IMG/VR virus record: IMGVR_UViG_3300028603_000002
Span: 32,001-96,000 of that record
Length of the DNA stretch: 64,000 nt
From: a virus
Lineage: Duplodnaviria; Caudoviricetes
Direction: 5' to 3' (one strand)
The notes under the pieces were generated by a model, which did no database searches, had not been told where the DNA came from, and worked only from the letters and a program-made list of their open reading frames with translations. Below are positions 47,689 to 58,878 of the stretch, piece by piece. A program made the translations under genes and the position numbers. Each line of letters begins with the position of its first letter. The first letter of the stretch is position 1.

Positions 47689-47718
47689 GGTGTTGATATT
47701 GTTTAAAGGGAGACAACA

Positions 47719-48084
47719 ATGAAAAAAATACTAACAATTGTCGAACCAGCATTATATTGTAACAATATAGAATCAATATTAACATTAAGTAGAAAGTATA
47801 AAAATGATATTGATATATGGGTAATAACAAATTTGTGCGATGCACATAGCATAAGGATGTTAGAAAAGAAAAGAATCAACTCTTCAAATTTGTATTATGC
47901 CCAAAATAAGCAGGATAAAATACAATTCTGTAAAGAGACTAGTTGTTATCATATAGATGATGACATTAATGATGTTGAAATAATTAAATACGAAGCCAAG
48001 ATTCCAGTTAAATTAATATTTGATAGGAGAATAATTACGGACTATCGCATTTTTTTAGAAAAAAGATTAAAAAAGATTTTGTAG
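47719..48084 (+). CDS. Hypothetical protein (HAD-like remnant)
   Basis: VIT...K...HIDD. Confidence 0.45.
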   Translation: MKKILTIVEPALYCNNIESILTLSRKYKNDIDIWVITNLCDAHSIRMLEKKRINSSNLYYAQNKQDKIQFCKETSCYHIDDDINDVEIIKYEAKIPVKLIFDRRIITDYRIFLEKRLKKIL

Positions 48085-48255
48085 ATATAAAAATGTTATT
48101 TATATTTATGATGTTGAAAAGATATTTGGGTGTTATTATTCTAACACGAAGTTATTTGAAACGCTGGCAGACATAGACGCATACATCTAACCAAGTAATA
48201 CGATCTGGTATGGTAATTTTAGAATTACGAGTCAGGTGTGTATGAGTCATTTTTA

Positions 48256-48329
48256 GTAGGGGTAGCTTAATTGGCGAGAGCACTTGTTTTGGGAACAAGT
48301 AGATGTGGATTCGACTTCCACTCCCTGCA
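48256..48329 (+). tRNA. tRNA-Pro(UGG)
   Basis: Cloverleaf; CTTGT-ttTGGga-ACAAG. Confidence 0.85.
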
Positions 48330-48332
48330 CAA

Positions 48333-48409
48333 AAAATAGAAACATAATATATGTTACTTACATCAATTTCATAGACTGACTTAATTACATATATTGATTA
48401 TTCTATTTT
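48333..48409 (+). ncRNA. ACAU/GAUUA internal-loop motif RNA, copy 1
   Basis: AAAATAGAA-ACAT-AATATATGT-TACTT...ACATATATT-GATTA-TTCTATTTT. Confidence 0.7.
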
Positions 48410-48420
48410 ATTTTAAGAAC

Positions 48421-48536
48421 AAAAAGAAAACATTATTGATGTTACTCTGGATTAATCTCCCGAATGGGGGATTGATAGGTTCGATTCCTATCAGGACCGA
48501 ATGGTCTTGTTATACATCAATTGATTATTTCTTTTT
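48421..48536 (+). ncRNA. ACAU/GAUUA motif RNA, copy 2, with tRNA-like T-arm payload
   Basis: Same motif; the insert has three hairpins including GATAGG-TTCGATT-CCTATC. Confidence 0.7.
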
Positions 48537-48547
48537 TTACAATACAC

Positions 48548-48623
48548 AGCGCGGTGAGTCTGGAGAGGCACCAGGCGCGGTCTCATAAGCCGAACGACGT
48601 GGGTTCGAATCCCACCTGCGCTC
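48548..48623 (+). tRNA. tRNA-Met(CAU), initiator-like
   Basis: AGCGCGG/CTGCGCT acceptor, CGGT-ctCATaa-GCCG, GTTCGAATC. Confidence 0.75.
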
Positions 48624-48670
48624 CTAAAATTTAATTAACTTTTATATTTATTGTTAAAAGGAGTTTCAAT

Positions 48671-48895
48671 ATGGATAAGTACATTTGTACAAAAGAATGG
48701 CCAAGACATGCTAAAGGAGATGTCATTGAGGCATGGGAATATAATAGAATACCACGGGAGATTCAACAAGAACATTTTAAGAAAGTAGAAAAGGAAACTA
48801 AAAAAGAAATTAGGCCTACTGACAAAGGAAAAGGAAAAGTATCATTCACTAAAAAAATTGAAAATGAAGAACCACTGGGTAGTAACAATATCTGA
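48671..48895 (+). CDS. Small hypothetical protein
   Basis: TATTTAT and GGAG upstream. Confidence 0.5.
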   Translation: MDKYICTKEWPRHAKGDVIEAWEYNRIPREIQQEHFKKVEKETKKEIRPTDKGKGKVSFTKKIENEEPLGSNNI

Positions 48896-49034
48896 TGATG
48901 GTAATGTTAAGAAAAAAAGAAAGTTTAAGGGACCTGCAGAAGTAGTAGCAGGACAAGAATATCATAAGCAAATTAAGAAAATGGTAAACATTACTAAACA
49001 TCGTATTAGTAAGAAATACGGATTATAATTATAC

Positions 49035-49406
49035 GGGCCATACAGGAATCGACAGGTATAAGAAGTATATTAGGCGATCCGCACAATGATATTAACGTGC
49101 GTCAAAAAGGTATATCAACACAGAGTTGACAAAAATGTCAGTTTAGATTTGGCACTAGAAGCATTGAAAAATGATACTAGCGGCGGCCGTGCTATTAACA
49201 TGGTTACCAAGCCAGCAGCTTTCGCGGTAGCTGCGTAAACCAAACCGTTCTTCCTGAGCTTTCTACCATGTGTAGGTAGCCAACAATGGTTTTTCTTATT
49301 GTACCCATTAAACAATAAGATGGTGGAGTTGCAGGGTTAGTTTATGATCGTTATTCCTAGTATATGTATTATGTTCTGGATGTGGGTTCGAATCCCACAT
49401 GGTCCA
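49035..49406 (+). ncRNA. ssrA: tmRNA
   Basis: GGGCCAT/ATGGTCC acceptor with G3:U70; GGAATCGAC; 3' T-arm GTGGG-TTCGAAT-CCCAC; tag ORF ending AAFAVAA*. Confidence 0.92.
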
Positions 49407-49480
49407 CTTCAAACATGGAATGGGTCACCTCTAGAGCAGGTGTTGCAATGGGGGTGGCTTTATTAAAAACAAGGAAAGAT

Positions 49481-49990
49481 ATGAAAAAATTAATATTGTT
49501 TATTCTGTTATTAACTGTTACTACATTAAATAGTCAGGCCATAGAACAAAATAAAGTTGATAAAAACATTAAATTGCTTTCCATTCCTATAAATACAGGT
49601 ACTGAACTGACACCAGCTGTGATGGATGTAATAGATCGTGTAGCAATTGAAAATAAGATAAGAAAAGAAGTACAAGCTGAAATGGCAGCTGCTTGTGATG
49701 AAAGGCAATTAGCTATTGAAAAGATGAAGTTGGAAATTGAATGTAGAGGTATTACACCAGGTGAATTAGGAATTGCTCCAGATACTATTTGTGTTGGTTT
49801 AGGATTGTATTCCGAATGGATTGTGCGAGCTATATCTAATACAAGAATTGGTGGTACTTATACCGCATTGTTAGATCCTGCTACATCACTAAGCACACCA
49901 GGCCCATCTGGCACTCTAAGATCACGTACAATTGTAGGATTTGATAAATTTATCCCAGTAGGGACAGTGATTATAATGGCAGAAAAGTAA
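49481..49990 (+). CDS. Secreted hypothetical protein (start at ATG 49481, not 49364)
   Basis: Signal peptide MKKLILFILLLTVTTLNSQA; the upstream extension overlaps tmRNA. Confidence 0.6.
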   Translation: MKKLILFILLLTVTTLNSQAIEQNKVDKNIKLLSIPINTGTELTPAVMDVIDRVAIENKIRKEVQAEMAAACDERQLAIEKMKLEIECRGITPGELGIAPDTICVGLGLYSEWIVRAISNTRIGGTYTALLDPATSLSTPGPSGTLRSRTIVGFDKFIPVGTVIIMAEK

Positions 49991-50192
49991 TTATATTTTT
50001 AGTATGATAGTTTTAAATAAAATATATTATTTAGATCTAGGAAGTTCAAGTCCGGTGGAAGTAAAAACTATATGATTTTTACAAACTGGTGTATTATGTA
50101 AATATCTAAACTCTGCACCTGGTAGGGAAGAGGTTATTGATTACGATTTATTTGAAGAAAGTATTATAAAAGTTCATTAAAACATTTTTAAG

Positions 50193-50363
50193 ATGCCTAG
50201 AAATAACGATCCATTTAAGCCATGGAATGATGTAATGAAAGATACACCATTTGCTCCACATAACGGGCCTGAAGCAGATAATCCATTTAAACCATGGAAT
50301 GATCCTGCAGGAGATACTTCAAGATTAACAGATGAAGAAAAACGTTATTACGGTATAAGATAA
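50193..50363 (+). CDS. 56-aa repeat peptide (3 x D.PF.P[WH]N), not in the ORF track
   Basis: MPRNNDPFKPWNDVMKDTPFAPHNGPEADNPFKPWNDPAG... Confidence 0.6.
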   Translation: MPRNNDPFKPWNDVMKDTPFAPHNGPEADNPFKPWNDPAGDTSRLTDEEKRYYGIR

Positions 50364-50450
50364 CCCCCAGTGGCGAAATAGGCAGTACGCGTAAGACTTA
50401 AAATCTTATTCCTAGAAATGGGAGTGCAGGTTCGATTCCTGCCTGGGGGA
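50364..50450 (+). tRNA. tRNA-Leu(UAA)
   Basis: TAAGA-ctTAAaa-TCTTA, long variable arm. Confidence 0.9.
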
Positions 50451-50531
50451 CTAAATGACTATGTCACGGGTGTTATAAACATAGTCATCAGTTGGAATGT
50501 AGTGAATCACACCCTAACATTCCAACGAACC

Positions 50532-50605
50532 GCCTTCATAGCTCAATAGTGTAGAGTAACTGGCTCTTAACCAGTGGGTTCCGAGTTCGAGTCTCGGTGG
50601 GGGCA
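50532..50605 (+). tRNA. tRNA-Lys(CUU)
   Basis: ACTGG-ctCTTaa-CCAGT. Confidence 0.9.
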
Positions 50606-50664
50606 CTATAAACAGGCTTGGTAAAGCCTCTTGTAATTATTACAACGTAACCAAGTAATTGAAT

Positions 50665-50749
50665 GGTAGGTTGCCAGAGTGGTTAACGGAGCAGTTTGCT
50701 AAACTGTCATCTCGAAAGGGGTGCACTGGTTCGAATCCAGTACCTACCG
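50665..50749 (+). tRNA. tRNA-Ser(GCU)
   Basis: GCAGT-ttGCTaa-ACTGT, long variable arm. Confidence 0.9.
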
Positions 50750-50761
50750 CAATTTAAATAT

Positions 50762-50832
50762 TGCCCTGTAGTATAATGGTAGTATATAGGAATTTGGATC
50801 CTATGGTTTCAGTTCGAATCTGAGCAGGGCGT
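50762..50832 (+). tRNA. tRNA-Gln(UUG)
   Basis: TAGGA-atTTGga-TCCTA. Confidence 0.85.
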
Positions 50833-50840
50833 CTAATAAA

Positions 50841-50912
50841 GTCCCATAAGCATTGATGGCGATGTATCTGTTTTGTAATCAGAATAAGTCGGTTCGAATC
50901 CGGCATGGGGCT
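50841..50912 (+). tRNA. tRNA-Thr(UGU)
   Basis: TCTGt-ttTGTaa-tCAGA; U73. Confidence 0.85.
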
Positions 50913-51083
50913 CAAATAAAAAAATTTAGGATGAGGATGTGGTGAGTATAAGCTCCTAATGTGTAATAAGGAAGAAGTACAAAGAAAAAGGGATTGTAGT
51001 ATTTGTATGAAACAGCCGACACACATGAGAATCCCTGACGCCATTATGGCTAGACCCGTAACCACATCCTTTATTTTAATTAT

Positions 51084-51180
51084 GGAAGAGTAACGCCGTC
51101 AGACTGTAAATCTGATCCGCTTTAACAAATTGGCGTAGTTGGACTTCGCGGTAAGTCGGGTTCGAGTCCCACCTCTTCCA
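51084..51180 (+). tRNA. tRNA-Tyr(GUA)-like, D-armless with enlarged variable arm
   Basis: GGAAGAG/CTCTTCC acceptor, TCAGA-ctGTAaa-TCTGA; only 8 nt between acceptor and anticodon stems. Confidence 0.75.
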
Positions 51181-51189
51181 CTTATATAT

Positions 51190-51262
51190 GGCAACTGAGC
51201 AAGTGAGGTCATTGTGCTGGTCTGAAAAACCAGAGAATCCGGATCGTTACCGGGAGTTGCCG
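51190..51262 (+). tRNA. tRNA-Phe(GAA)
   Basis: CTGGT-ctGAAaa-ACCAG; variant T-loop ATCGTTA. Confidence 0.8.
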
Positions 51263-51275
51263 CAAAATTAAATAC

Positions 51276-51347
51276 GCCTCCATAGTGTAATTGATAGCAT
51301 ATGAGCTTCCAAACCTCAAGGTCCGAGTTTGAATCTTGGTGGGGGTG
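51276..51347 (+). tRNA. tRNA-Trp(CCA)
   Basis: TGAGc-ttCCAaa-cCTCA; G73. Confidence 0.75.
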
Positions 51348-51370
51348 CTAATATAAGTTTTATTTTTTAC

Positions 51371-51444
51371 GGTGTTGCAGCATATTGGTGCATGTTACCC
51401 GCCTGTCACGCGGGGGATTGTGGATTCGAATTCCATCAACACCG
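51371..51444 (+). tRNA. tRNA-Asp(GUC)
   Basis: CCCGC-ctGTCac-GCGGG. Confidence 0.88.
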
Positions 51445-51450
51445 CGATCA

Positions 51451-51524
51451 GCGGGTTACGCATAAGTGATGGTGCACCTGCCTTCCAAGCAGGAAAAGAG
51501 CCAGTTTGATCCTGGCAACCCGCA
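51451..51524 (+). tRNA. tRNA-Gly(UCC)
   Basis: CCTGC-ctTCCaa-GCAGG; GCGGGTT/AACCCGC. Confidence 0.85.
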
Positions 51525-51528
51525 CAAA

Positions 51529-51602
51529 AAATAGAAACATAACACATGTTACTTTATGAATCGTTTATTTCAACCAAACTACATGTGTTGATTATTCTAT
51601 TT
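51529..51602 (+). ncRNA. ACAU/GAUUA motif RNA, copy 3
   Basis: AAATAGAA-ACAT-AACACATGT-TACTT...ACATGTGTT-GATTA-TTCTATTT; compensatory changes relative to copy 1. Confidence 0.7.
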
Positions 51603-51611
51603 ATTTTTAAT

Positions 51612-51684
51612 GGGGGTATAGTTTAACTGGCTAAAATCAGTGATTTGCACTCACTAGATCCGATTTCGATCATCGGTACCTCCA
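51612..51684 (+). tRNA. tRNA-Ala(UGC)
   Basis: AGTGA-ttTGCac-TCACT; G3:U70. Confidence 0.88.
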
Positions 51685-51692
51685 CAAACTTT

Positions 51693-51835
51693 TGCGTGGT
51701 AGTTGAATTGGAATATTATTCGTCCGACGGTAGTATTTTGAAATGAATGACGATTCATTAAGTTTAATACCTTAGAATAATAACAACACTCCCGGCTAGA
51801 GGGAGAGATTGCAGGTTCGACTCCTGTCCACGCAA
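51693..51835 (+). tRNA. tRNA-like RNA with about 70-nt structured D-loop insertion and CUA at the anticodon position
   Basis: TGCGTGG/CCACGCA acceptor, CTCCC-ggCTAga-GGGAG, GCAGG-TTCGACT-CCTGT. Confidence 0.6.
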
Positions 51836-51858
51836 CTATTAACAGGTAACTACTAGAT

Positions 51859-51930
51859 GGCCCGTTCATCTAATGGCTAGGATACGCGACTTTCTATCGC
51901 ACAATGAGGGTTCGATTCCCTCACGGGCTG
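51859..51930 (+). tRNA. tRNA-Glu(UUC)
   Basis: GCGA-ctTTCta-TCGC; Glu-type GGCCCGTTCATCTA 5' end. Confidence 0.8.
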
Positions 51931-51940
51931 CAATAAAAAA

Positions 51941-52014
51941 GAACAGGTACTCAATATTGGCTTTGAGATAGGTCTGCAAAACCTAGAATGTGGGTTCGAT
52001 TCCCACCTTGTTCT
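51941..52014 (+). tRNA. tRNA-Cys(GCA)
   Basis: TAGGT-ctGCAaa-ACCTA; U73. Confidence 0.88.
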
Positions 52015-52021
52015 CAAATTC

Positions 52022-52095
52022 GCCTCTGATGCTCGTATGGTAGAGCACCGGACTTTTAATCCGGGTATAGCTCAGTTCGAATCTGGCCAGGGGCA
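52022..52095 (+). tRNA. tRNA-Lys(UUU)
   Basis: CCGGA-ctTTTaa-TCCGG. Confidence 0.85.
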
Positions 52096-52111
52096 CTAAA
52101 AACATTTTAAT

Positions 52112-52477
52112 ATGAAAACAGGATTTTATAATCTATCAACACTTTCTTTAGAAGAACTAAAGTCTTTTTATAAAGATACAATTCCTCTTTCATATTGTAT
52201 CATGTGTGAATCAAAATACACCACATATAAAAATAAATGGAGATCTGTAGATAATAAATACAATATCAATGATTATATTGAGAGAGTAAATCATGCTAAC
52301 CACAATGTTTGTATAGATAGATCAATTCAAGGAGCTAACCTCCCAGGAACTGAAAGAGGAGAGATTGGATTCAAATTACATGAAACATATGATAGAGACT
52401 GGCATCAAATAACATTCTATACTACATTAGAAAACTTTTATAAATTAGTTGACAAATTTAAACTAAAAGAATTATGA
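52112..52477 (+). CDS. Hypothetical protein
   Basis: ORF track. Confidence 0.55.
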   Translation: MKTGFYNLSTLSLEELKSFYKDTIPLSYCIMCESKYTTYKNKWRSVDNKYNINDYIERVNHANHNVCIDRSIQGANLPGTERGEIGFKLHETYDRDWHQITFYTTLENFYKLVDKFKLKEL

Positions 52478-53169
52478 GATGTTTAGCAGTTGGTGATATA
52501 CACGGCAATTATGATGCATTAATGGATGTATTAGAAAAATGTAATTATGATCCTAATAATGATATGTTAATTGCAATGGGCGATTATACTGATAGAGGAC
52601 CTAAAAACATTGCAGTAGTAGAATTTTTATTATCAATTGGTCATTTTATTGGATTACTTGGAAACCATGATGTTTGGGTAAGAGAATATCTAAATGGAAA
52701 TTATAGTGGAATAGATTGGATATTGAATGGTGGAAAAGTAACATATGATGAATATGAAAAAGCAAAGAAACTTGGTTCATTTGATATTGGTCTACATAAA
52801 GAATTCTTTAATAGTTTACATGAATATTATGTCTTAGAATTGAATGGTAAGAAGTATGGATTCGTCCATGGTGGATTTTATTCGTGGGATGGATTAGGAC
52901 ATGATGATACAGTAAAATATACTTGGTGCAGAGAGTTGTGGGAAGATGTATTTAATGGGCGGAATGAATCAGTAAAAAATCAGTTATCACATTATGATAC
53001 ATTATTTATAGGACATTGCCCGACAAATTTATATGGTGTTAAACCAGATAAACTTCCAGTTAAATATGCAAATGTTATTAACCTAGACCAAGGTATTGCT
53101 TATGAAAATGGAAGATTAACAATATGTGATATAGAAACTGAACAATGTTGGCAATCCAGTAAAAAGTAA
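52474..53169 (+). CDS. Ser/Thr protein phosphatase-type metallophosphoesterase (lambda NinI-like)
   Basis: GDIHG, GDYTDRG, GNHD, NGG, VHGG, GH. Confidence 0.9.
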   Translation: MRCLAVGDIHGNYDALMDVLEKCNYDPNNDMLIAMGDYTDRGPKNIAVVEFLLSIGHFIGLLGNHDVWVREYLNGNYSGIDWILNGGKVTYDEYEKAKKLGSFDIGLHKEFFNSLHEYYVLELNGKKYGFVHGGFYSWDGLGHDDTVKYTWCRELWEDVFNGRNESVKNQLSHYDTLFIGHCPTNLYGVKPDKLPVKYANVINLDQGIAYENGRLTICDIETEQCWQSSKK

Positions 53170-53173
53170 AGTC

Positions 53174-53452
53174 ATGACTTGGAATTTCAGATTAATGCTT
53201 ACAAAACACCAACATCCAACAGGTGATCCTGATAATTCTTATACTATAGGAATACATGAAGTGTATTATGATGAAGATGGGTCACCTAACGGATACCATG
53301 AAAATCCTAGAGAGATGTCGGCAGAAGATATTAAAGGTATGGAATGGTTACTCGATGCTCTTCATGGTGCATTTGATAAACCAGTATTGTGGAATAGTGA
53401 TAGATTTCCAGAAGAAGTATCTAAAGAAGATTTAAAAGCCCTTGTAGCTTAG
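53174..53452 (+). CDS. Conserved hypothetical phage protein
   Basis: MTWNFR...IHEVYYDEDG.P..Y...AF.KPVL; stop lies inside tRNA-Val. Confidence 0.65.
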   Translation: MTWNFRLMLTKHQHPTGDPDNSYTIGIHEVYYDEDGSPNGYHENPREMSAEDIKGMEWLLDALHGAFDKPVLWNSDRFPEEVSKEDLKALVA

Positions 53453-53513
53453 CCTGGTTTAAAGCGCGTATTTTACATGTACGAGATCATTGGTTCGAAT
53501 CCAGTTGAGGGCA
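53438..53513 (+). tRNA. tRNA-Val(UAC)
   Basis: CGTAT-ttTACat-GTACG. Confidence 0.85.
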
Positions 53514-53547
53514 CTAGAAAAATATATGAAAAATATTTCAAGAAATA

Positions 53548-53579
53548 TTTGGTTAATTGGAAAACATTACTTATCTTTA
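53548..53579 (+). promoter_or_regulatory. Promoter TTTGG-N19-TATCTTTA
   Basis: Repeated fixed-spacing motif. Confidence 0.75.
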
Positions 53580-53603
53580 TTATGAAATAAAAGAGTATAA
53601 GTT

Positions 53604-54050
53604 ATGAAAACCGAACAATTAAACGTTCTTCAATTAGTTAGAAAATTCGATAATGGAGATTTTGACAATCCAAGTTTTGAAACTCAATGTGATGCTGGAT
53701 GGTATGATTGGTTTTGTAAACAGACTAGTTTAGCAGGCAAGACTAGAACATTATATAGAAAGGTTAAACAGTTATTGAAAACGAAGAGAATTCAAGAATT
53801 GAACCTTGAAAAAACATATGTGTGGTTCAAAAATAATTGTCCAATGAATGGTAGTTTATATGATGATATCCGATTTGCGGATATTGAGACAGGGCAGGTT
53901 TTATTTACTATAGTACCCAAATGCGGACATAGAATAAGTGAAGGGGAAAGGGCACAAATACATGGCAACCGTTTAAACCCAGATGATGAGTTTATAATGG
54001 ATGTGTACAAAGGTGATTGGAAAGGAGTATTAGAATTTCTTAATAAATAG
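53604..54050 (+). CDS. Conserved hypothetical phage protein
   Basis: AGWYDWFC..SL, YVWFKNNCPMNG.LYDD.R. Confidence 0.7.
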   Translation: MKTEQLNVLQLVRKFDNGDFDNPSFETQCDAGWYDWFCKQTSLAGKTRTLYRKVKQLLKTKRIQELNLEKTYVWFKNNCPMNGSLYDDIRFADIETGQVLFTIVPKCGHRISEGERAQIHGNRLNPDDEFIMDVYKGDWKGVLEFLNK

Positions 54051-54110
54051 TTAACCCATATCAAATCTTCCATCAGGTAACAGCGTATAAGTGGAGACTA
54101 AGGGTTATTA

Positions 54111-54192
54111 AGGCGTATACCAGCCCATCCTGATAAGATGGAGAACTGTAGCAGGTAAGTTGAAAACATGGGTTCGAATCCCATTACGCCTA
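54111..54192 (+). tRNA. tRNA-Ile(GAU)-like, D-armless with enlarged variable arm
   Basis: AGGCGTA/TACGCCT acceptor, CCATC-ctGATaa-GATGG, ATGGG-TTCGAAT-CCCAT; 7-nt D-remnant. Confidence 0.78.
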
Positions 54193-54214
54193 CAAAAAAT
54201 GTTCATTGAAAGAT

Positions 54215-54390
54215 ATAACTGGAACTTCCAGATGAAAGTGAGTGTCGAAAGCTCATTAGATAACGGTACAAGCCCGACCCAATTGGATGCTATCATTGTA
54301 ATCTGATCAGAAGTTATGACCCTCTGCCAATGCATTGTAAAACTTGAACGCAGTTAACAGTAGAGCGAGACGGGTACTCTACACAGTTAT
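54215..54390 (+). ncRNA. Unassigned multi-helix structured RNA
   Basis: ATAACTG/CAGTTAT closure with nested AACTTC/GAAGTT, CAGAT/ATCTG, TGAG/CTCA, GTAGAG/CTCTAC. Confidence 0.55.
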
Positions 54391-54395
54391 TTTTT

Positions 54396-54470
54396 GGACC
54401 TATAGTTCAGTTGGTTTAGAATTACTCGCTCATAACGAGGAGGTCGCAGGTTCGAGTCCTGCTAGGTCCA
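54396..54470 (+). tRNA. tRNA-Met or Ile2 (CAU)
   Basis: CTCG-ctCATaa-CGAG, canonical cloverleaf. Confidence 0.85.
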
Positions 54471-54472
54471 CT

Positions 54473-54559
54473 GTGTACGAATCGGATATGGTTTGCCGAG
54501 TCAGGTTGTGACCCTGGTGTGATGAAAGTCACGTGCGAGTTCGAATCTCGTCGTACACC
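54473..54559 (+). tRNA. tRNA-His(GUG) with long variable arm
   Basis: TCAGG-ttGTGac-CCTGG; C73; extra arm GTGAT-gaaa-GTCAC. Confidence 0.8.
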
Positions 54560-54564
54560 TAATT

Positions 54565-54640
54565 GCCTGGAAAGCTTAAGTCTGGTATAAGCGGCGGTTT
54601 GTTAAACCGAGGATAGTGGGTTCGAATCCTTCTCTAGGCG
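54565..54640 (+). tRNA. tRNA-Asn(GUU)
   Basis: CGGT-ttGTTaa-ACCG; G73. Confidence 0.82.
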
Positions 54641-54734
54641 CAATTTCAAAGTTTAATTATTATGTTAATTCAATTATTATTAATAATTTTATTGTTTATT
54701 GGAGTCTTATACTTCAATACTAGAAAATAAGTAG

Positions 54735-55319
54735 ATGAGAATAATATTCGATATTCATGGAAAGATGCATCGGTATAAACAATTAACAACTGATGTCAAA
54801 AAGAGTGTACAAATAGGTGATTTAGGATTTAAAAGTCAACATGAATGGTTTTTAGCTAATATGGATTGTGATAATCATAAAGTATTATTTGGTAACCATG
54901 ATTATTATCCATATATAAATCTAAAACATTCGTTGGGTGATTTTGCTTTCTATGAAGGAATATTCTTTATACGTGGTGCTGCTTCAATTGATAAAGCATA
55001 TAGAGTTGCTTATAGAGATTGGTTCCCAGAAGAAGAATTGAATTTTAGACAAATGACTGAATGTTTCAATCTTTATAGTGAAATTAAACCAAAGATTGTA
55101 GTTAGTCATGATTGCCCACAAGCTGTATGCAAAGAATTATTCGGGCATCCAGGTTCTCACACAAGAAATTTTTTACAATTATTATTTGAAGAACATCAAC
55201 CTGATATGTGGTTATTTGGCCACCACCATCAAAATGTAGAATTGGTTCTTGATAATACTTATTTTAAATGTGGTGAAGAATTAGAATATTATGATATATC
55301 AGAAAATTTATTAAAATGA
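54735..55319 (+). CDS. Metallophosphoesterase
   Basis: DIHG, GDLG, GNHD, SHDCP, GHHH. Confidence 0.88.
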   Translation: MRIIFDIHGKMHRYKQLTTDVKKSVQIGDLGFKSQHEWFLANMDCDNHKVLFGNHDYYPYINLKHSLGDFAFYEGIFFIRGAASIDKAYRVAYRDWFPEEELNFRQMTECFNLYSEIKPKIVVSHDCPQAVCKELFGHPGSHTRNFLQLLFEEHQPDMWLFGHHHQNVELVLDNTYFKCGEELEYYDISENLLK

Positions 55320-55322
55320 AAA

Positions 55323-55396
55323 GGCGCTATGGCGGAATTGGCATACGCACATGTTTTAGGAACATGGTCTTGTGGGTTCGAGTCCCACTGGCGCTA
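55323..55396 (+). tRNA. tRNA-Leu(UAG) with short variable loop
   Basis: CATGT-ttTAGga-ACATG; variable region only GTCTT. Confidence 0.82.
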
Positions 55397-55401
55397 CTAA
55401 T

Positions 55402-55473
55402 AGCTTCATCGTTCAATTGGAAGGATACATGGCTACGAACCATGAGATGGGGGTTCGAGTCCTCTTGAGGCTA
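55402..55473 (+). tRNA. tRNA-Arg(ACG)
   Basis: CATGG-ctACGaa-CCATG. Confidence 0.88.
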
Positions 55474-55490
55474 CTAATAAAGGATATAAT

Positions 55491-56063
55491 ATGATAGAAA
55501 AAGGATACCAAATAAATGTTAATCAAACTTTAACAGTTATTAATGATGCAATTGAAAATAAAGGATTTCATCTATTAGAATCAGTTTTAGATCATATGAG
55601 GTTTGATCCATTATGTCCTAAATTAGATGGTTGGTTAAGAACATTAACTAAAGATGAGTTAATGAAATTGTTTTCAATGTATATTTCTTTCAGACATAGA
55701 AATGAGAAAAACAAATCAGGAATATTGGAAGATTTTATTGCTGAGTTTGAATTGATTATGGTATCTAAATTTATTGATTTTGATTTTAGATTAAAATTGA
55801 CAAATATTCCGGAATCAAAAACATATATTGATTTTATCAATGAGTATGAAGAACGTATACGAATACTAAGTCTAAAAGAATGTGCTGCAATAGTTGATGA
55901 TATTGAAAGATCACTAGTGTCAATTATACTATTAAAAGAAGATTGTATTAAATTGATTCAATCGGAAGGCGCAATAGATAAATGGAAGTATACAAGAACA
56001 GATAAATATAAAGAAGCGAGAGATATTATTTTAAAGTATACAAAATTAGCTCCCGTCATCTAA
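55491..56063 (+). CDS. Hypothetical protein
   Basis: ORF track; end overlaps tRNA-Arg. Confidence 0.5.
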   Translation: MIEKGYQINVNQTLTVINDAIENKGFHLLESVLDHMRFDPLCPKLDGWLRTLTKDELMKLFSMYISFRHRNEKNKSGILEDFIAEFELIMVSKFIDFDFRLKLTNIPESKTYIDFINEYEERIRILSLKECAAIVDDIERSLVSIILLKEDCIKLIQSEGAIDKWKYTRTDKYKEARDIILKYTKLAPVI

Positions 56064-56120
56064 ATGGAAAGATATGGGTCTTCTAAACCTAACATACCAG
56101 TTCGAGTCTGGTCGGGAGTA
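56049..56120 (+). tRNA. tRNA-Arg(UCU)
   Basis: TGGGT-ctTCTaa-ACCTA. Confidence 0.85.
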
Positions 56121-56125
56121 CAATC

Positions 56126-56215
56126 GGTAGGTGATATTTTTAATGGAAAAATCCCCGTCTTGAAAACGGGTGGATCTCTGAGAAAGGGGTTGGGGTTCGA
56201 GTCCTCCGCCTACCG
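56126..56215 (+). tRNA. tRNA-Ser(UGA)
   Basis: CCCGT-ctTGAaa-ACGGG, long variable arm, G73. Confidence 0.85.
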
Positions 56216-56235
56216 CAAATAAATCTTTAACACAA

Positions 56236-56406
56236 ATGAACGACTACACTATAATGTCCTTCGGAGAACATAAAGGAAAACATCTGAAGGATGTACCTGC
56301 CAGCTATTTCATATATCTACATGAAGAAAACATAGCCTTTGGACCTATTAAAAGATATATAGAAGATAACTTAGATGTATTCTATCACGAAGTTAACCAA
56401 AAATAA
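56236..56406 (+). CDS. DUF3820-like small protein (56 aa), not in the ORF track
   Basis: MSFGEHKGKHLKDVPASYF matches the MPFGKYKG..L.DVP..YL pattern. Confidence 0.7.
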   Translation: MNDYTIMSFGEHKGKHLKDVPASYFIYLHEENIAFGPIKRYIEDNLDVFYHEVNQK

Positions 56407-56417
56407 TAATGAAGATA

Positions 56418-56449
56418 TTTGGATAAGTTAAATACTTTTCTTATCTTTA
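56418..56449 (+). promoter_or_regulatory. Promoter TTTGG-N19-TATCTTTA for the motif-RNA/TROVE-TerD unit
   Basis: Repeated fixed-spacing motif. Confidence 0.75.
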
Positions 56450-56523
56450 TTGTCTAATTAATTATTTGACTTGAATACTTAGTATCATGAAAAGACTTCA
56501 TAACAACATATAACTGAAACAAG

Positions 56524-56647
56524 CAAGGGGTAGTGTAATTGGCAGCACAGGTAAATTACATTACACGATTATTATTTAAAAATAAACATGTTTAGTGTTA
56601 CTCGCTTTCTGGTAGCCCTAGTCCTGGTTCGAATCCAGGCCCCTTGC
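56524..56647 (+). tRNA. tRNA-Gln(CUG) carrying a 52-nt insertion (permuted ACAU/GAUUA motif, copy 4) in the anticodon stem
   Basis: Deleting 56552-56603 yields a canonical cloverleaf with GGGCT-ttCTGgt-AGCCC. Confidence 0.75.
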
Positions 56648-56651
56648 CTAA

Positions 56652-56712
56652 ATTAAACATCTAGCAACTTACTCTTAAATTGACAATTAAATTAGTTGTT
56701 AGGATTATTAAT
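56652..56712 (+). ncRNA. ACAU/GAUUA motif RNA, copy 5, in the 5' leader of the 694-aa gene
   Basis: ATTAA-ACAT-CTAGCAACT-TACTC...AGTTGTTAG-GATTA-TTAAT. Confidence 0.7.
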
Positions 56713-56732
56713 CTTTCTAAATTTTTAAAGTT

Positions 56733-58817
56733 ATGGAAAAACATGAATTGAAGCACAAAATTACTTTCCTAAAAGTTAAAGGGCTTCATGTTAAACAAGG
56801 TTCTGATTCAGGTAATGATAGCCTAGTACATCAAATCAACCATGAGTTGATGGGTATAGGTTATATACTTGAAAAAGACCTATTTGATAGGTTATGTACT
56901 TTAAAAGAAGGGCAGTTAAATAATGTCTATCATGGAATTGTATCCGCTATAAAAGATGTAGTTGGTGATTCTGATGGATATGAGCCTATCTACAGAAACT
57001 TTCCTCAATCAGTATTAAGCAAGTCTCATTTTGAATTATTCGTCAATGCTATAATTCATTATTGGTCACTTGGTACTTGGAGACCCGAGGATGAAGAATT
57101 TCTTAATAGAGAAGTTAAGTTAGAAAAGGTTGAATTTAAACCTGTTAGATTGCTTATCGATGAACAATTCCACAAAGTATTTGAAAACATTGCTTATAGT
57201 GGTGAATCAATAAGTGCTTTTGATAAGGAAGCTATTGATTTTTATATTGATAATTATGATGCTGTGAATATTGAATTGAGTAAAATCAGGTTCAAAGAAA
57301 CTGCATCATATATTGGTAAGAGATTGATGGATAGTAAAATTCAAATGTTACCAACTAAATCTGCTACTACTGTATTGCGTATAATGAGTGCATATTCTGG
57401 AGGTGATGAGGGATTGAAGGAAAATACTAAATTCAAAAATCCATCAACCAGACAGTGTAATATATTACGTAGGACATTGGAGCAATGTTTTGATTTAGAA
57501 GATTCATTCAAAACATATCGTGAACCATGGTTAAGGTTGTTATTTTACTTGAATCCATTAGCTTCGAATAATGTTAAGAAGTACCCAAACCTTGCAGCAT
57601 ATACTAACCTATTAAGGAATGATCCTGGGTTGTTGGAAACATTCAATGCTAAAGTTGAAAAAGCATTGCAACATAAAAGTCCTGGTATATTTGAATTGTT
57701 GAAACACCGTCCAGGAGTATTTACTAGAAGATTAGATCATTTAGTACGGGTATTTGGTGAAGTTGCAATTGATAATTACCTTCAATTATCAAAATTATCA
57801 TTTGCTAATTTAATTGATGCATATAACCATTTCAGAAGTAGAGACAAAGTACAAAATTCCCGTTCTTCCGTAGTTGCATCAAGTAAAAGAAGCAATGCAC
57901 ATTCATATAAAGCATTAGATGCATTAGATTCAAAACTAGTAGTATCTATTACATCAAAGATCCTTAATAGGATGGTTGATATGAAGGTACAAGGTTTTGA
58001 GGATAAGAAAGTATTCATTGATCGTCAATGGTATTTCAAATCAATTCCAACTAATAATAGAGCGGCTGATTTATCATTAACTCAAAATGCATCATTTGAT
58101 TGTGAGTTATATGATGATAAGAAGAAATGTATCAGGATGTATGTACATTGGCCAGGTAGGTTTGATATTGATTTATCAGGTTGGTTGGTAAATGAAGACA
58201 GAACAGAAGTTCAGAAAATTGGTTGGAATGCTAGATATCATGACAGTGATGGTGCAGTTGTTTATTCAGGTGATAATACAGGTTATAGTGCTAAGAATGC
58301 TGAATACTTAGATATCAATATTCCGAAATTAAAGAAGAAGAGTATTGAGTGGGTAATAACTGAGGCTAGAGTATATCGAGGACCCAAGTTCTCAAAATGG
58401 TCAGGTCAAGGTGTCCATACAGGATTCATGGGTATTGATCATCCTGAAGCAAATAATAGATGGCAACCAAAAACATTGGAAAATGCCATTAAGGTAACAG
58501 TTGATACAGGTAATGTTTATTTAATTGCATTCCATATACCGACTATGAATGTTGTTTATTTAAACTTATCCAGTCCAGATAATAATAGTGTTTCAAATGC
58601 TGATACAGTATTGAAATTCCTAGATATGGTTGAACAAAATGCTGCTTTAGATTCCGGAGCTGTCGAATTTAGAATGTTGGAACTAGGTAGAAAGATAACT
58701 ATTGGTCACGCTATACAGATGAGAATGCCAGCATTATCTGATACGTTAGAAGGAGCGGATGTTGTATTTGATGAAAATACACAAGTTGAAGAACTTCTAA
58801 CAATAGTTAATGACTAA
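56733..58817 (+). CDS. ROT/TROVE-like helical plus C-terminal TerD-domain protein (SCO0854/MXAN_6230-like family, RING absent)
   Basis: PIYRNFP..V, NAIIHYW, RPG.FTRRLDHL.R; TerD motifs DIDLS, YSGD, AEYLDI. Confidence 0.7.
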   Translation: MEKHELKHKITFLKVKGLHVKQGSDSGNDSLVHQINHELMGIGYILEKDLFDRLCTLKEGQLNNVYHGIVSAIKDVVGDSDGYEPIYRNFPQSVLSKSHFELFVNAIIHYWSLGTWRPEDEEFLNREVKLEKVEFKPVRLLIDEQFHKVFENIAYSGESISAFDKEAIDFYIDNYDAVNIELSKIRFKETASYIGKRLMDSKIQMLPTKSATTVLRIMSAYSGGDEGLKENTKFKNPSTRQCNILRRTLEQCFDLEDSFKTYREPWLRLLFYLNPLASNNVKKYPNLAAYTNLLRNDPGLLETFNAKVEKALQHKSPGIFELLKHRPGVFTRRLDHLVRVFGEVAIDNYLQLSKLSFANLIDAYNHFRSRDKVQNSRSSVVASSKRSNAHSYKALDALDSKLVVSITSKILNRMVDMKVQGFEDKKVFIDRQWYFKSIPTNNRAADLSLTQNASFDCELYDDKKKCIRMYVHWPGRFDIDLSGWLVNEDRTEVQKIGWNARYHDSDGAVVYSGDNTGYSAKNAEYLDINIPKLKKKSIEWVITEARVYRGPKFSKWSGQGVHTGFMGIDHPEANNRWQPKTLENAIKVTVDTGNVYLIAFHIPTMNVVYLNLSSPDNNSVSNADTVLKFLDMVEQNAALDSGAVEFRMLELGRKITIGHAIQMRMPALSDTLEGADVVFDENTQVEELLTIVND

Positions 58818-58838
58818 TGTTCAATGTGTTTAGGTGTA

Positions 58839-58878
58839 GGGAAGTATTGGAATTGTTATGATTCCTTACTTCCTTTTT
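58839..58878 (+). terminator. Rho-independent terminator
   Basis: GGAAGTA..GGAAT/ATTCC.TACTTCC followed by TTTTT. Confidence 0.65.

What the first reader, a model, noticed from the sequence alone, without database searches (positions are those of the whole stretch)
48333..58817. Five-copy covarying RNA motif linked to a TROVE-like/TerD protein: candidate new Y-RNA-like ribonucleoprotein
Seen: the motif stem1-ACAT-stem2(9 bp)-TACT[C/T]-payload-T-stem2'-GATTA-stem1' occurs at 48333-48409, 48421-48536, 51529-51602 and 56652-56712, and circularly permuted at 56552-56603. Loop residues are invariant while stem2 covaries: AATATATGT/ACATATATT, TATTGATGT/ACATCAATT, AACACATGT/ACATGTGTT, CTAGCAACT/AGTTGTTAG, GTTTAGTGT/ACATTACAC. 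One payload carries a tRNA T-arm, one copy is fused to a whole tRNA, and one sits 20 nt before the ATG of the 694-aa gene, all within a promoter-to-terminator unit for copies 4 and 5 (56418-58878). Known (from memory, unverified here): this protein family was described as ROT/TROVE-like repeats plus TerD with a predicted RNA-processing role, and Ro60 binds Y RNAs whose bacterial versions attach a tRNA-like domain to the protein-binding stem. Inference: the motif is the protein's binding site, the leader copy is autoregulatory, and the other copies are its RNA partners.
Basis: partly seen in the sequence, partly recalled or inferred. Interest (0 to 1): 0.9.

Follow-up and report, generated by a model that had tools for sequence, protein, structure and literature searches.

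The report
Ro-like protein and its RNA handle
A phage gene for a large, probably ring-shaped RNA-binding protein is always accompanied by copies of a previously undescribed folded RNA "handle", which is attached to tRNA look-alikes and even sits inside real tRNA genes, pointing to an unstudied RNA-protein machine that deals with tRNAs.

Summary
The motif stem1-NCAU-stem2 (9 bp)-UACU-payload-stem2'-GAUUN-stem1' occurs at all five stated places. A covariance model built from it finds 75 copies in 29 loci. The loop letters are invariant and every pair in both stems shows compensatory changes. All copies lie on the strand of, and mostly within 1 kb upstream of, homologues of the 694-aa gene, in phages and Myxococcales MAGs; the last copy usually ends 8-38 nt before the start codon. 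No Rfam family matches.

The protein has a clear C-terminal TerD fold. Its helical N-terminal domain has Ro60 as its best structural match, but only at modest Z, and no sequence method links it to TROVE.

The handle carries three kinds of cargo: plain loops, YrlA-like T-arm/minihelix modules, and whole tRNAs. Whole tRNAs are joined to the handle through the anticodon stem, either as an intron-like insert (here tRNA-Gln-CUG, between positions 28 and 29) or as a circularly permuted tRNA gene.

Distant homologues in cultured phages carry arrays of the same design with different sequences.

Best reading: the handle is the protein's cognate binding site, as in Ro60-Y RNA. Binding, autoregulation, and whether the handle is ever excised remain untested.

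The parts
48333..48409 (+). Handle copy 1, plain 27-nt loop payload. Stem1 48333-41 with 48401-09, ACAU 48342-45, stem2 48346-54 with 48387-95, UACUU 48355-59, GAUUA 48396-400. Lies directly after tRNA-Pro.
   Evidence: 57.4 bits, E 1e-9; MFE gives this structure, z -3.8
48421..48536 (+). Handle copy 2 with a YrlA-like payload: a hairpin, UGGAUUA, a T arm and a loop-closed 7-bp acceptor-like minihelix. It has no D arm and no anticodon loop. Lies directly before tRNA-Met.
   Evidence: 48.4 bits; T arm ATAGG/TTCGATT/CCTAT; acceptor closed by GAAT; z -4.9
51528..51603 (+). Handle copy 3, plain loop payload. Its stem1 and 5' flank are the same as in copy 1. Lies between two tRNA genes.
   Evidence: 69.5 bits, E 2e-12
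56524..56647 (+). tRNA-Gln(CUG) gene interrupted between positions 28 and 29 (5' strand of the anticodon stem) by the handle in its permuted form.
   Evidence: deleting 56552-56603 gives GGGCU/UUCUGGU/AGCCC, five Watson-Crick pairs, U33, G37; ARAGORN finds no tRNA unspliced; it calls Gln-CUG for 51 deletion variants
56552..56603 (+). Intron-like insert: UAAAUU, stem2' 56558-66, GAUUA 56567-71, stem1 hairpin 56572-85, ACAU 56586-89, stem2 56590-98, UACUC 56599-603.
56648..56716 (+). Leader copy of the handle, ending 17 nt before the start codon of the protein gene.
   Evidence: (60.5 bits, E 2e-10). Equivalent copies end 8-38 nt before the ATG in 25 of 27 loci.
56733..58817 (+). Gene for the 694-aa protein. 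Helical N-terminal domain, about residues 1-450; Ro60 is its best structural match. C-terminal TerD beta-sandwich, about residues 455-630, followed by short helices.
58839..58878 (+). Hairpin followed by UUUUU after the stop codon; terminator-like.
   Evidence: -19.3 kcal/mol, z -3.2. Not flagged by the consensus scan.

Best explanation
The handle is the specific binding site of the adjacent protein, and together they form a ribonucleoprotein that works like Ro60 with its Y RNAs. The handle consists of two helices separated by the invariant asymmetric loop NCAU/GAUUN, a stem of exactly 9 bp, and then single-stranded UACU. The protein has a helical, probably ring-like N-terminal domain and carries a Ca-binding TerD domain where Ro60 has vWA.

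The handle tethers the protein to three kinds of cargo:
- nothing (small hairpin RNAs released from the tRNA array);
- a YrlA-like tRNA-elbow mimic (T arm plus loop-closed acceptor minihelix);
- a whole tRNA body, joined through a three-way junction in the anticodon stem, with the RNA chain ends either at the acceptor stem (intron-like form) or at stem1 (permuted-gene form).

The copy directly before the start codon lets the protein repress its own translation.

Shown here: the structure, its covariation, the invariant letters, the linkage to the gene, the cargo classes and the TerD fold. Inferred: binding, feedback control, and an RNP role in tRNA or structured-RNA surveillance, protection or repair during infection. 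I lean roughly 60:40 to the handle staying on the RNA rather than being cut out.
For: 1. Structure. 75 copies carry invariant CAU, UACU and GA and show compensatory changes at all 18 pairs. Stem2 is 9 bp in essentially all of these 75 model-aligned copies (two GC-rich, degenerate copies in a Myxococcales MAG, parsed by eye, look 10 nt long). That fixed length fits one protein reading two elements at a set distance and phase.

2. Linkage to the gene.
- All hits lie on the gene's strand.
- 28 of 29 metagenome loci that hold the gene's 5' end have a copy within 1 kb upstream; so do all 9 viral loci with homologues of at least 42% identity.
- Two GC-rich Myxococcales MAGs have them too.
- No other neighbouring gene is conserved.

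3. Reverse test. Of 30 IMG/VR stretches matching a strict sub-pattern, every match with a paired stem2 (11 matches in 5 stretches) lies on one of 3 contigs that encode the protein; the 25 stretches with unpaired matches do not.

4. Co-variation of protein and RNA lineages. Homologues of 21-25% identity in Xanthomonas phages XacN1 and Xoo-sp13 and in Rhodococcus phage Weasels2 have arrays of the same design with different loop letters. Weasels2 again includes a permuted tRNA. These are by-eye parses.

5. Y-RNA likeness.
- At least 9 loci have T-arm plus closed-acceptor payloads preceded by UGGUU.
- The permuted payload has YrlA's arm order (T arm, acceptor, D arm) and draws a sub-threshold YrlA hit (26 bits).
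- Ro60 structures are ranks 1 and 2 of 48,161 chains for the N-terminal domain.

6. tRNA-borne copies look like dedicated partners rather than needed tRNAs.
- They sit beside the protein gene even where no other tRNA lies nearby (L016, L024, L025, L030, L031, L040).
- Two duplicate a canonical tRNA of the same anticodon: Pro-UGG in L011 and Lys-CUU in Weasels2.
- 7 of 17 have non-canonical anticodon loops or no clean exon join.

7. Leader position. The last handle ends 8-38 nt before the ATG in 25 of 27 loci.
Against: - No binding or expression data exist; no RNA run holds this DNA.
- TROVE homology has no sequence support, and the structural Z of 8-9 lies within the range that helical repeats can reach by chance (notes).
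- 10 of 17 tRNA-borne copies leave, once deleted, a perfect 5-bp anticodon stem with U33 and a purine at 37, across many different anticodons. Shuffled controls average 3.3 and never exceed 7. Such upkeep of decoding features is easier to explain if the handle is removed and the tRNA is used.
- The window's interrupted tRNA-Gln(CUG) is the only tRNA with that anticodon in the window's tRNA island (ARAGORN was run on the window only).
- RING-bearing relatives in Myxococcota show no such RNA in 1.5-kb flanks.
Confidence: 0.6

Rival explanations
1. The handle is a protein-dependent intervening or processing signal, the bacterial and phage counterpart of the archaeal bulge-helix-bulge motif. The protein, alone or with host nuclease and ligase, recognises the handle, and the RNA is cut on both sides near the outer end of stem2 and rejoined.

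Interrupted genes would then yield mature tRNAs. Permuted genes would yield circular pre-tRNAs that RNase P and RNase Z open at the acceptor stem, as in Cyanidioschyzon. Stand-alone copies would be regulators, decoys or remnants. The protein still binds the handle, so this rival differs from the best explanation in the fate of the RNA.
For: - Deleting the insert gives perfect anticodon arms in 10 of 17 tRNA-borne copies, against a mean of 3.3 and a maximum of 7 in 200 shuffles. The anticodons are sensible and varied: Gln, Lys (twice), Gly, Glu, Pro, Arg, Asp.
- Permuted genes in L010, L026 and L036 and in Weasels2 also join to proper anticodon arms.
- ARAGORN finds these tRNAs only after deletion.
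- Gln-CUG is otherwise missing from the window's tRNA set.
- UACU is invariant right at the 3' junction.
- L024 and L030 share nearly the same anticodon arm plus handle in different tRNA bodies, as exon co-conversion by a mobile intron would give.
Against: - The phage genome has no match to the Pfam RtcB, RNA_ligase (PF09414) or tRNA splicing endonuclease families (PF09511 and RNase III were not searched), and no nuclease or ligase fold is evident in the protein.
- There is no bulge-helix-bulge.
- The distances from the handle to the inferred junctions vary (4-8 nt on the 5' side, 4-6 nt on the 3' side), which fits a measuring nuclease poorly.
- YrlA-like payloads and plain loops, which are most of the copies, cannot become tRNAs.
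- Two tRNA-borne copies duplicate canonical tRNAs.
- 7 of 17 have defective loops or no clean join.
- Contigs of three DNA studies keep the insert; none skips it.
Confidence: 0.28
2. The RNA acts without the protein, and sits beside the gene for another reason such as shared transcription in a tRNA-related island. It could be a small self-cleaving or self-splicing ribozyme, a mobile RNA or DNA element that targets tRNA genes, or a cis-acting leader or attenuator.
For: - The invariant loop letters could be a catalytic core or a recognition site for a host factor.
- Copies are scattered through tRNA arrays (window 48.3 and 51.5 kb; L011 at 11079 and 13642).
- The insert sits in tRNA genes, as mobile introns do.
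Against: - No known ribozyme or other Rfam family matches at E<=5.
- The linkage to this one protein family holds across phages of AT-rich and GC-rich hosts and in bacterial chromosomes, with no other conserved neighbour.
- Distant protein lineages have correspondingly different handles, which points to co-evolution with the protein.
- Both circular permutations occur, which simple insertion of a mobile element does not produce.
Confidence: 0.09
3. The copies are chance hairpins or recent sequence repeats with no function.
For: The region is AT-rich, and copies 1 and 3 share an identical stem1 and flank.
Against: - Compensatory changes occur at all 18 pairs in 74 distinct copies.
- The loop letters are invariant across loci whose proteins are only 40-50% identical.
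- None of 500 shuffles reaches the observed covariation, and none of 100 shuffles reaches the observed pattern count.
Confidence: 0.01

Closest known systems
Ro60 (Rsr) with Y RNAs, especially bacterial and phage YrlA (Chen et al. 2014, PMC4201824; Rfam RF02553)
   Same: - A large helical protein is encoded next to one or several small RNAs.
- Those RNAs combine a conserved protein-binding stem with a tRNA-like module in the order T arm, loop-closed acceptor, D arm.
- The system occurs in phages as well as bacteria.
- Ro60 is the best structural match of the N-terminal domain.
- There is a sub-threshold YrlA hit on the Weasels2 payload.
   Different: - No TROVE Pfam hit and no profile-profile similarity.
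- TerD replaces vWA.
- The handle's sequence and internal loop are unrelated to the Y RNA stem, and no Rfam hit falls in the window.
- The handle joins the tRNA body inside the anticodon stem and keeps an anticodon hairpin.
- It also occurs inside otherwise normal tRNA genes with free acceptor ends, which is not known for Y RNAs.
- A copy lies in the protein's own leader.
MXAN_6230/SCO0854 family RING domain proteins (NCBIfam NF041916). From memory, and unverified here, Pfam describes a prokaryotic RING finger fused to an alpha-helical domain, ROT/TROVE-like repeats and TerD, with a predicted RNA-processing role.
   Same: - All 54 diverse family members match NF041916.
- The Atlas structural neighbours include that family at TM 0.76 over residues 4-450.
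- The helical domain is followed by TerD in the same order.
   Different: - The window protein scores 131 bits against a cut-off of 600, and only over profile positions 387-678 of 842; it lacks the RING part.
- No RNA partner has been described for that family as far as my searches show.
- RING-type Myxococcota loci show no handle and no tRNA in their flanks.
Archaeal and eukaryal tRNA introns with the bulge-helix-bulge motif, and circularly permuted tRNA genes of Cyanidioschyzon merolae and some algae and archaea (general knowledge; reviewed in PMC3400036, found but not read here)
   Same: - Short inserts, too small for group I or II introns, sit in or near the anticodon arm.
- The same structural signal is found as an intron and, opened up, as the flanks of permuted genes whose 3' half precedes the 5' half.
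   Different: - No bulge-helix-bulge, and no splicing endonuclease or RtcB gene in the phage.
- The usual site is 28/29 or 29/30 in the stem rather than 37/38.
- The signal is a long two-helix handle with its own invariant loop.
- The host range is bacteria and phages, where I know of only group I introns in tRNA genes.
- Excision has not been shown.
Autoregulatory mRNA leaders that mimic an RNA-binding protein's main target (ribosomal protein operons, T4 RegA/gp32, MS2 coat; general knowledge)
   Same: A copy of the protein's presumed RNA target lies directly before its own start codon, conserved in position across loci.
   Different: Repression has not been tested. In some loci the element next to the ATG is a whole handle-bearing tRNA (L016, L019).

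Membership tests
Y RNA / YrlA (Rfam RF00019, RF02553) | Match to the Rfam covariance model at the gathering score | tested here: not met
   No Y_RNA or YrlA match in window 47500-57500 even at E<=5. The only hit is a 26.4-bit match (gathering score 69) on a related payload in phage Weasels2.
Y RNA / YrlA (Rfam RF00019, RF02553) | Encoded next to a Ro60/TROVE gene | tested here: inconclusive
   Adjacency to the 694-aa gene is very strong. Whether that protein is a Ro60 relative is unresolved.
Y RNA / YrlA (Rfam RF00019, RF02553) | tRNA-like module: T arm, loop-closed acceptor stem and D arm attached to the protein-binding stem | tested here: met
   A T arm plus closed acceptor is found in at least 9 loci, including window 48421-48536, without a D arm. 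Full T-acceptor-D order is found in the permuted payloads of L010, L026 and L036.
Ro60 / TROVE proteins (Pfam PF05731) | Sequence match to the TROVE profile | tested here: not met
   No PF05731 hit for the protein or for 24 and 54 relatives at E<=0.01 and E<=1 respectively. hhalign against three TROVE proteins gives probability 2.8%. The PDB profile search finds only TerD.
Ro60 / TROVE proteins (Pfam PF05731) | Ring of HEAT-like helical repeats | tested here: inconclusive
   VIA-align: 2nvo_A Z 8.8 over 263 residues and 9l5y_B Z 8.2 over 254 residues are ranks 1-2 of 48,161 chains for the N-terminal model; other hits align only about 90 residues. The same two follow TerD for the whole model. 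Foldseek finds nothing. A Z below 13 can arise by chance for helical repeats.
Ro60 / TROVE proteins (Pfam PF05731) | C-terminal vWA domain with a metal site | tested here: not met
   The C-terminal domain has a TerD fold.
TerD domain (Pfam PF02342) | TerD beta-sandwich fold and conserved acidic, Ca-binding-type motifs | tested here: met
   VIA Z 12.8 (2qz7_B) and 11.6 (2kxt); Foldseek E 3.5e-4 to 8e-4. PF02342 hits 8 of 24 relatives. The PDB profile search hits 3ibz. DIDLS and SGDNTG are invariant in A1. The window protein itself is below Pfam's reporting level.
MXAN_6230/SCO0854 RING family (NCBIfam NF041916) | Score over the curated cut-off, with the N-terminal RING part present | tested here: not met
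   131 bits against a cut-off of 600, matching profile positions 387-678 of 842 only. It is a homologue, not a member.
Bulge-helix-bulge tRNA introns (archaeal/eukaryal type) | 4-bp helix flanked by two 3-nt bulges at the splice sites; a splicing endonuclease is present | tested here: not met
   No such motif is visible by inspection of the junctions. PF01974 is absent from the phage genome.
Group I / group II introns | Conserved catalytic core of 200 nt or more | tested here: not met
   The inserts are 36-65 nt, and no intron family matches in Rfam.
Circularly permuted tRNA genes | The 3' half precedes the 5' half, joined by a short linker between acceptor strands; the halves join to form a normal anticodon arm | tested here: met
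   L010 9765-9913 (Pro-UGG: CCG plus GC/AUUGGGA/GCCGG), L026 and L036, and Weasels2 L090 4579-4702. None occurs in the window itself. Maturation has not been tested.

The most novel reading that the evidence does not exclude
Bacteria and their phages have a protein-dependent tRNA splicing and permuted-gene maturation pathway. The handle is a new kind of intron signal, recognised by the Ro-like/TerD protein. Interrupted genes yield mature tRNAs and permuted genes pass through circular intermediates. Phage tRNA supply would then depend on a phage protein, possibly letting these tRNAs evade host anticodon nucleases until they are matured.
Probability: 0.28. Interest if true: 0.95.

Novelty: new variant of a known kind. 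Interest (0 to 1): 0.87.

Why it matters
The N-terminal profile finds 2,247 representative clusters at 50% identity. The family is therefore large, yet it has no named function and no known partner.

This work gives it a concrete, testable RNA partner with a defined structure and invariant letters. Culturable systems are available: Rhodococcus phage Weasels2 and Xanthomonas phages XacN1 and Xoo-sp13 carry analogous arrays.

It would extend the Ro60-Y RNA principle (a ring-like protein plus a tRNA-mimicking RNA) to a second protein lineage that is unrelated by sequence.

It also documents tRNA genes in phages and bacteria that are interrupted in the anticodon stem by a non-group-I insert, or are circularly permuted. 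To my knowledge, and in four literature searches, these gene architectures have not been reported outside archaea and eukaryotes.

Either outcome is new biology for phage tRNA islands, whether the RNP is stable or the handle is excised.

Tried and rejected
RNA family and protein sequence searches
- Rfam at gathering score and at E<=5: only tRNAs and a tmRNA, nothing on the motif.
- Pfam on the protein: no hit. PHROGs: phrog_33734, function unknown. PDB by sequence: nothing.

Tests of TROVE homology
- Profile against PDB: only TerD.
- Pfam on 54 diverse members: only TerD.
- hhalign of the N-terminal alignment against three TROVE proteins from Myxococcota: probability 2.8%.
- Foldseek on the whole model and on the N-terminal model: TerD only, or nothing.

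Other enzymes and neighbours
- RtcB, RNA_ligase (PF09414) and tRNA splicing endonuclease families: no match in the phage genome.
- Conserved neighbour genes: none beyond close relatives. Their products (OmpA-like, a DUF) are not RNA-related.

More distant homologues
- The covariance model on the 29%-identity homologue locus L018, on XacN1 and on RING-type Myxococcota loci: no hits. No tRNAs in the RING-type loci.

Expression and population data
- No RNA holder is listed for this DNA.
- DNA contigs of four runs from four studies were laid on 56000-57200. None skips 56552-56603. The one joint (56584 to 57092, run X4) has 555 other letters between and only 22 letters on one side, so it is uninformative.

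Tools, literature and remaining checks
- Burroughs and Aravind 2016 is not held.
- Four literature searches found no paper on this motif, on a TerD/TROVE RNA partner, or on permuted or stem-interrupted tRNA genes in phages.
- Promoter scan: no enrichment.
- An RNase III-like 2-nt stagger (GG|UAA paired with UUACU) is seen in the window and L016 but is not conserved elsewhere, so I dropped it.
- ARAGORN deletion scanning alone was too permissive to define junctions. A strict solver with controls replaced it.

Full report
SETTING. The window is bases 32001-96000 of a 171,908-bp viral record with direct terminal repeats. Positions 48.2-56.2 kb are a tRNA island: ARAGORN finds 22 tRNA genes, Rfam adds two more, and there is a tmRNA at 49035-49409. 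The DNA occurs in landfill and sludge metagenomes.

Reading the sequence and scanning for the pattern confirm four copies of stem1-ACAU-stem2 (9 bp)-UACUY-payload-stem2'-GAUUA-stem1', at 48333-48409, 48421-48536, 51528-51603 and 56648-56716. A fifth, circularly permuted copy lies at 56552-56603.
- ACATN9TACTY occurs 7 times against 2.3 expected; none of 100 shuffles reaches 7.
- The covariance model finds no further copy in the whole phage genome.

A REAL, CONSERVED RNA STRUCTURE. The 694-aa protein has hundreds of homologues of 40-51% identity. I fetched loci for them from three collections: viral contigs (L009-L018), one-per-species genomes (two Myxococcales MAGs, L019 and L020) and metagenomes (L021-L053).
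- A strict pattern search immediately found the same motif, with different but complementary stems, just upstream of the homologues.
- An alignment of 14 short copies (A2) gave model R1. R1 finds 75 copies at E<=0.001 in 29 sources, all on the + strand, which is the strand of the protein gene.
- In the resulting alignment CAU, UACU and GA are invariant (75 of 75) and the two U of GAUU nearly so (72 and 74 of 75). The first loop letter is A or C.
- All 18 base pairs show changes on both sides. Helix 2 is 96% paired and helix 1 is 82% paired. The covariation score is 0.85, against 0.20 in shuffles and at most 0.18 when partners are slid by 1-3 columns.
- The model favours pairing, so these figures lean upward. 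The slid control and the many pair types at each position do not depend on that.
- No Rfam family matches any copy, even at E<=5.

LINKAGE TO THE PROTEIN.
- Of 29 metagenome loci that hold the gene's 5' end, 27 have R1 hits upstream. L027 has the permuted form instead. Only L049 shows none; its 980 nt upstream are GC-rich and mostly coding.
- All nine viral loci with homologues of at least 42% identity have hits. The 29%-identity locus L018 has none.
- The GC-rich Myxococcales MAG L019 has two tRNA-borne copies directly before the gene. L020 has two degenerate copies about 100-340 nt beyond the gene's 3' end, on the opposite strand.
- The last copy ends 8-38 nt before the start codon in 25 of 27 loci, with a median of 18 nt (coordinates).
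- An all-against-all comparison of neighbouring ORFs finds no other gene conserved across the loci. The conserved module is therefore RNA copies plus this gene.
- In the reverse direction, a strict sub-pattern scan of IMG/VR returned 30 stretches. Every match with a paired stem2 (11 matches, in 5 stretches) lies on one of three contigs that encode the protein. The 25 stretches without pairing do not.

WHAT THE HANDLE CARRIES.
- (C) Plain loops of 17-40 nt; these are most of the copies, including window copies 1, 3 and the leader copy.
- (B) A T arm followed by a 7-bp acceptor-like helix closed by a 4-8 nt loop, preceded by UGGUU. This class has no D arm and no anticodon loop. It includes window copy 2 and copies in at least 8 other loci (L012, L017, L021, L022, L024, L025, L029, L047). 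This is the YrlA design minus the D arm. The GG may stand in for the D-loop G18-G19 that docks on the T loop (inference).
- (A) A whole tRNA in circularly permuted order: anticodon hairpin, variable loop, T arm, acceptor 3' strand, a 3-18 nt linker, acceptor 5' strand, D arm. Examples are L010/L011/L014 (Pro-UGG), L026 and L036.
- (D) The permuted handle (stem1 closed by a loop) inserted into an ordinary tRNA gene. Examples are the window (56524-56647), L016, L017 (two), L019 (two), L024 (two), L025 (two), L027, L029, L030, L031 (two) and L040.

Classes A and D describe the same three-dimensional object: a tRNA with an extra two-helix arm leaving the 5' strand of the anticodon stem. They differ only in where the RNA chain begins and ends.

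THE INSERT IS PRECISE. With a strict rule (five Watson-Crick pairs, U33, purine 37, junction inside the 5' strand), deleting the insert restores an anticodon arm in 10 of 17 class D genes. The controls give 22% for mismatched halves, and a mean of 3.3 and maximum of 7 in 200 shuffles of the 5' tail.
- In the window, ...GG | UAAAUU...UACUC | GCU... joins to GGGCU/UUCUGGU/AGCCC, that is tRNA-Gln(CUG), interrupted between positions 28 and 29.
- Other genes give Lys-UUU, Lys-CUU, Gly-UCC, Glu-UUC (in a Myxococcales MAG), Pro-UGG, Arg-UCG, Gln-UUG and Asp-GUC.
- The site is usually 28/29 or 29/30, once in the loop (L017a) and once apparently at 26/27 (L040).
- The single-stranded linkers vary: 4-8 nt before stem2', and UACU plus 0-2 nt after stem2.
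- Seven genes give no clean join or have odd loops: C33 in L019a, an 8-nt loop in L025a and a poor T stem in L029. The permuted gene L026 has a 6-nt loop.
- ARAGORN sees none of these genes unless the insert is removed.

THE PROTEIN. AlphaFold2 models (whole protein pLDDT 79; residues 1-450 pLDDT 81) show a helical domain followed by a beta-sandwich.
- The sandwich is TerD: VIA Z 12.8 and 11.6, Foldseek E about 5e-4, PF02342 in 8 of 24 relatives, and invariant DIDLS and SGDNTG motifs.
- For the helical domain, an exhaustive structural search ranks D. radiodurans Rsr (Z 8.8, 263 residues, rmsd 5.6) and Thermus phage phiLo Ro60 (Z 8.2, 254 residues) first and second of 48,161 chains. All other hits cover only a roughly 90-residue HEAT-like stretch.
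- The same two, plus Xenopus Ro at Z 5.0, follow TerD in the whole-protein search.
- These Z values are within what helical repeats can reach by chance. Foldseek, Pfam, PDB profile search and hhalign against three TROVE proteins give no support.
- NCBIfam relates all 54 diverse members to the MXAN_6230/SCO0854 RING family, below its cut-off and without the RING part. The Atlas lists that family and 'putative TerD family' proteins of Actinomycetota as structural neighbours at TM 0.76-0.82.
I could not verify this with the tools.
- The N-terminal profile finds 2,247 representative clusters, so the family is large.

DISTANT RELATIVES HAVE THEIR OWN HANDLES. Homologues of 21-25% identity occur in three cultured phages. 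Each has arrays of the same design next to the gene on the same strand, but with different letters. These are by-eye parses.
- XacN1 and Xoo-sp13: stem1-CCAC/CCAA-stem2-UUCCUUCUA-payload-stem2'-ACUUU/GAUUU-stem1'.
- Weasels2: stem1-AUUAAG-like-stem2 (6 bp)-UUACUUC-payload-stem2'-GCUCA-like-stem1', four copies downstream of the gene. One of them encloses a permuted tRNA-Lys(CUU)-like payload, which draws a sub-threshold YrlA hit.
- A pyrimidine-rich UUNCUUC-like element after stem2 is common to all of these lineages.
- RNA and protein lineages changing together is what a direct, specific contact predicts.

HOW IT MOST LIKELY WORKS. The fixed 9-bp spacing between an invariant internal loop and an invariant single-stranded UACU suggests that one protein reads both elements. 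So do the exclusive linkage to one protein family and the lineage-specific handle sequences. I therefore read the handle as the protein's binding site (inferred, not shown).

The stable-RNP (Y RNA-like) version is favoured by four points:
- Most copies cannot become tRNAs.
- The YrlA-like class B is widespread.
- tRNA-borne copies sit beside the protein gene even where no other tRNA is near.
- Two tRNA-borne copies duplicate canonical tRNAs on the same contig or phage: Pro-UGG in L011 and Lys-CUU in Weasels2.

The excision version is favoured by four other points:
- The exon joins are clean.
- Canonical, varied anticodon loops are maintained.
- Gln-CUG is the only tRNA with that anticodon in this phage's island.
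- Permuted genes in eukaryotes are known to mature through circles.

It is weakened by the lack of any recognisable nuclease or ligase, by the absence of a bulge-helix-bulge, and by the variable junction distances. I put the two at roughly 60:28, with the rest on protein-independent roles.

The leader copy, 8-38 nt from the ATG, most simply acts as a feedback operator.

NOT SUPPORTED OR NOT TESTABLE.
- The promoter at about 56418 is not supported; a terminator-like hairpin at 58839-58878 is present.
- No RNA-seq run holds this DNA.
- DNA contigs from relatives in other studies keep the insert.

NOVELTY. No Rfam family matches. In the held literature I found no paper describing this RNA, an RNA partner for TerD/ROT-type proteins, or stem-interrupted or permuted tRNA genes in phages or bacteria. 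I file it as a new variant of the Ro60-Y RNA kind of system. There is a substantial chance (about 0.28) that it is instead a categorically new tRNA splicing and permutation pathway.

Noticed in passing
L090 (Rhodococcus phage Weasels2, NC_041887.1) 4418-4772; L088 (Xanthomonas phage XacN1) about 3405-3790; L089 (Xoo-sp13) about 2212-2350: Cultured phages with 21-25%-identity homologues carry arrays of the same design but with different loop letters. Weasels2 includes a circularly permuted tRNA-Lys(CUU)-like payload at 4579-4702, which draws a sub-threshold Rfam YrlA hit. XacN1 has a tRNA-like RNA ending in CCA at about 3537-3612.
   Followed up: partly
L024 3408-3452 and L030 158-202: A tRNA-Pro(UGG) and a tRNA-Gln(UUG) have different acceptor, D and T arms. 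They share an almost identical anticodon arm (one letter differs, in the anticodon) and an almost identical handle stem2. This would fit co-conversion of flanking exon sequence by a mobile insert.
   Followed up: no
L009 about 5240-5290, L012 about 4700-4730, L015 about 9810-9850, L016 about 9600-9630: Bacteroidota-type promoter motifs (TTG ... TAnnTTTG) lie directly before the first handle copy. The transcript would therefore start with the handle array, and these relatives probably infect Bacteroidota.
   Followed up: no
window 52474-53169 and 54735-55319: Two calcineurin-like phosphoesterase genes lie inside the tRNA island (Pfam Metallophos, E 1.7e-21 and 1.9e-7). Phosphoesterases of this superfamily trim RNA ends in phage RNA repair systems.
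   Followed up: no
window 49035-49409: A phage-encoded tmRNA lies inside the tRNA island (Rfam RF00023, 54.4 bits against a gathering score of 47). ARAGORN did not report it.
   Followed up: no
window 51451-51524, 54111-54192, 51084-51179: Two tRNA-like genes are found by Rfam but not by ARAGORN. A weak tRNA-Sec-like match lies at 51084-51179. Other notes of the scan describe some of these as tRNAs with reworked D arms.
   Followed up: no
L011 11079-11149 and 13642-13715: Stand-alone handle copies are wedged between canonical tRNA genes (Met/Gly-UCC, and just before Pro-UGG), 3-6 kb downstream of the protein gene. As in the window, RNase P and RNase Z would release them as discrete small RNAs.
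   Followed up: no
L091 (same Myxococcales MAG as L019): The genome that carries the handle/TerD module also encodes a separate protein with a weak but above-cut-off TROVE match (27.6 bits). The two systems can therefore coexist.
   Followed up: no
L088 1595-2458 and L089 1-739: In both Xanthomonas phages a gene annotated as nucleotidyltransferase lies three to four genes upstream of the homologue. Nucleotidyltransferases are recurrent parts of RNA repair systems.
   Followed up: no
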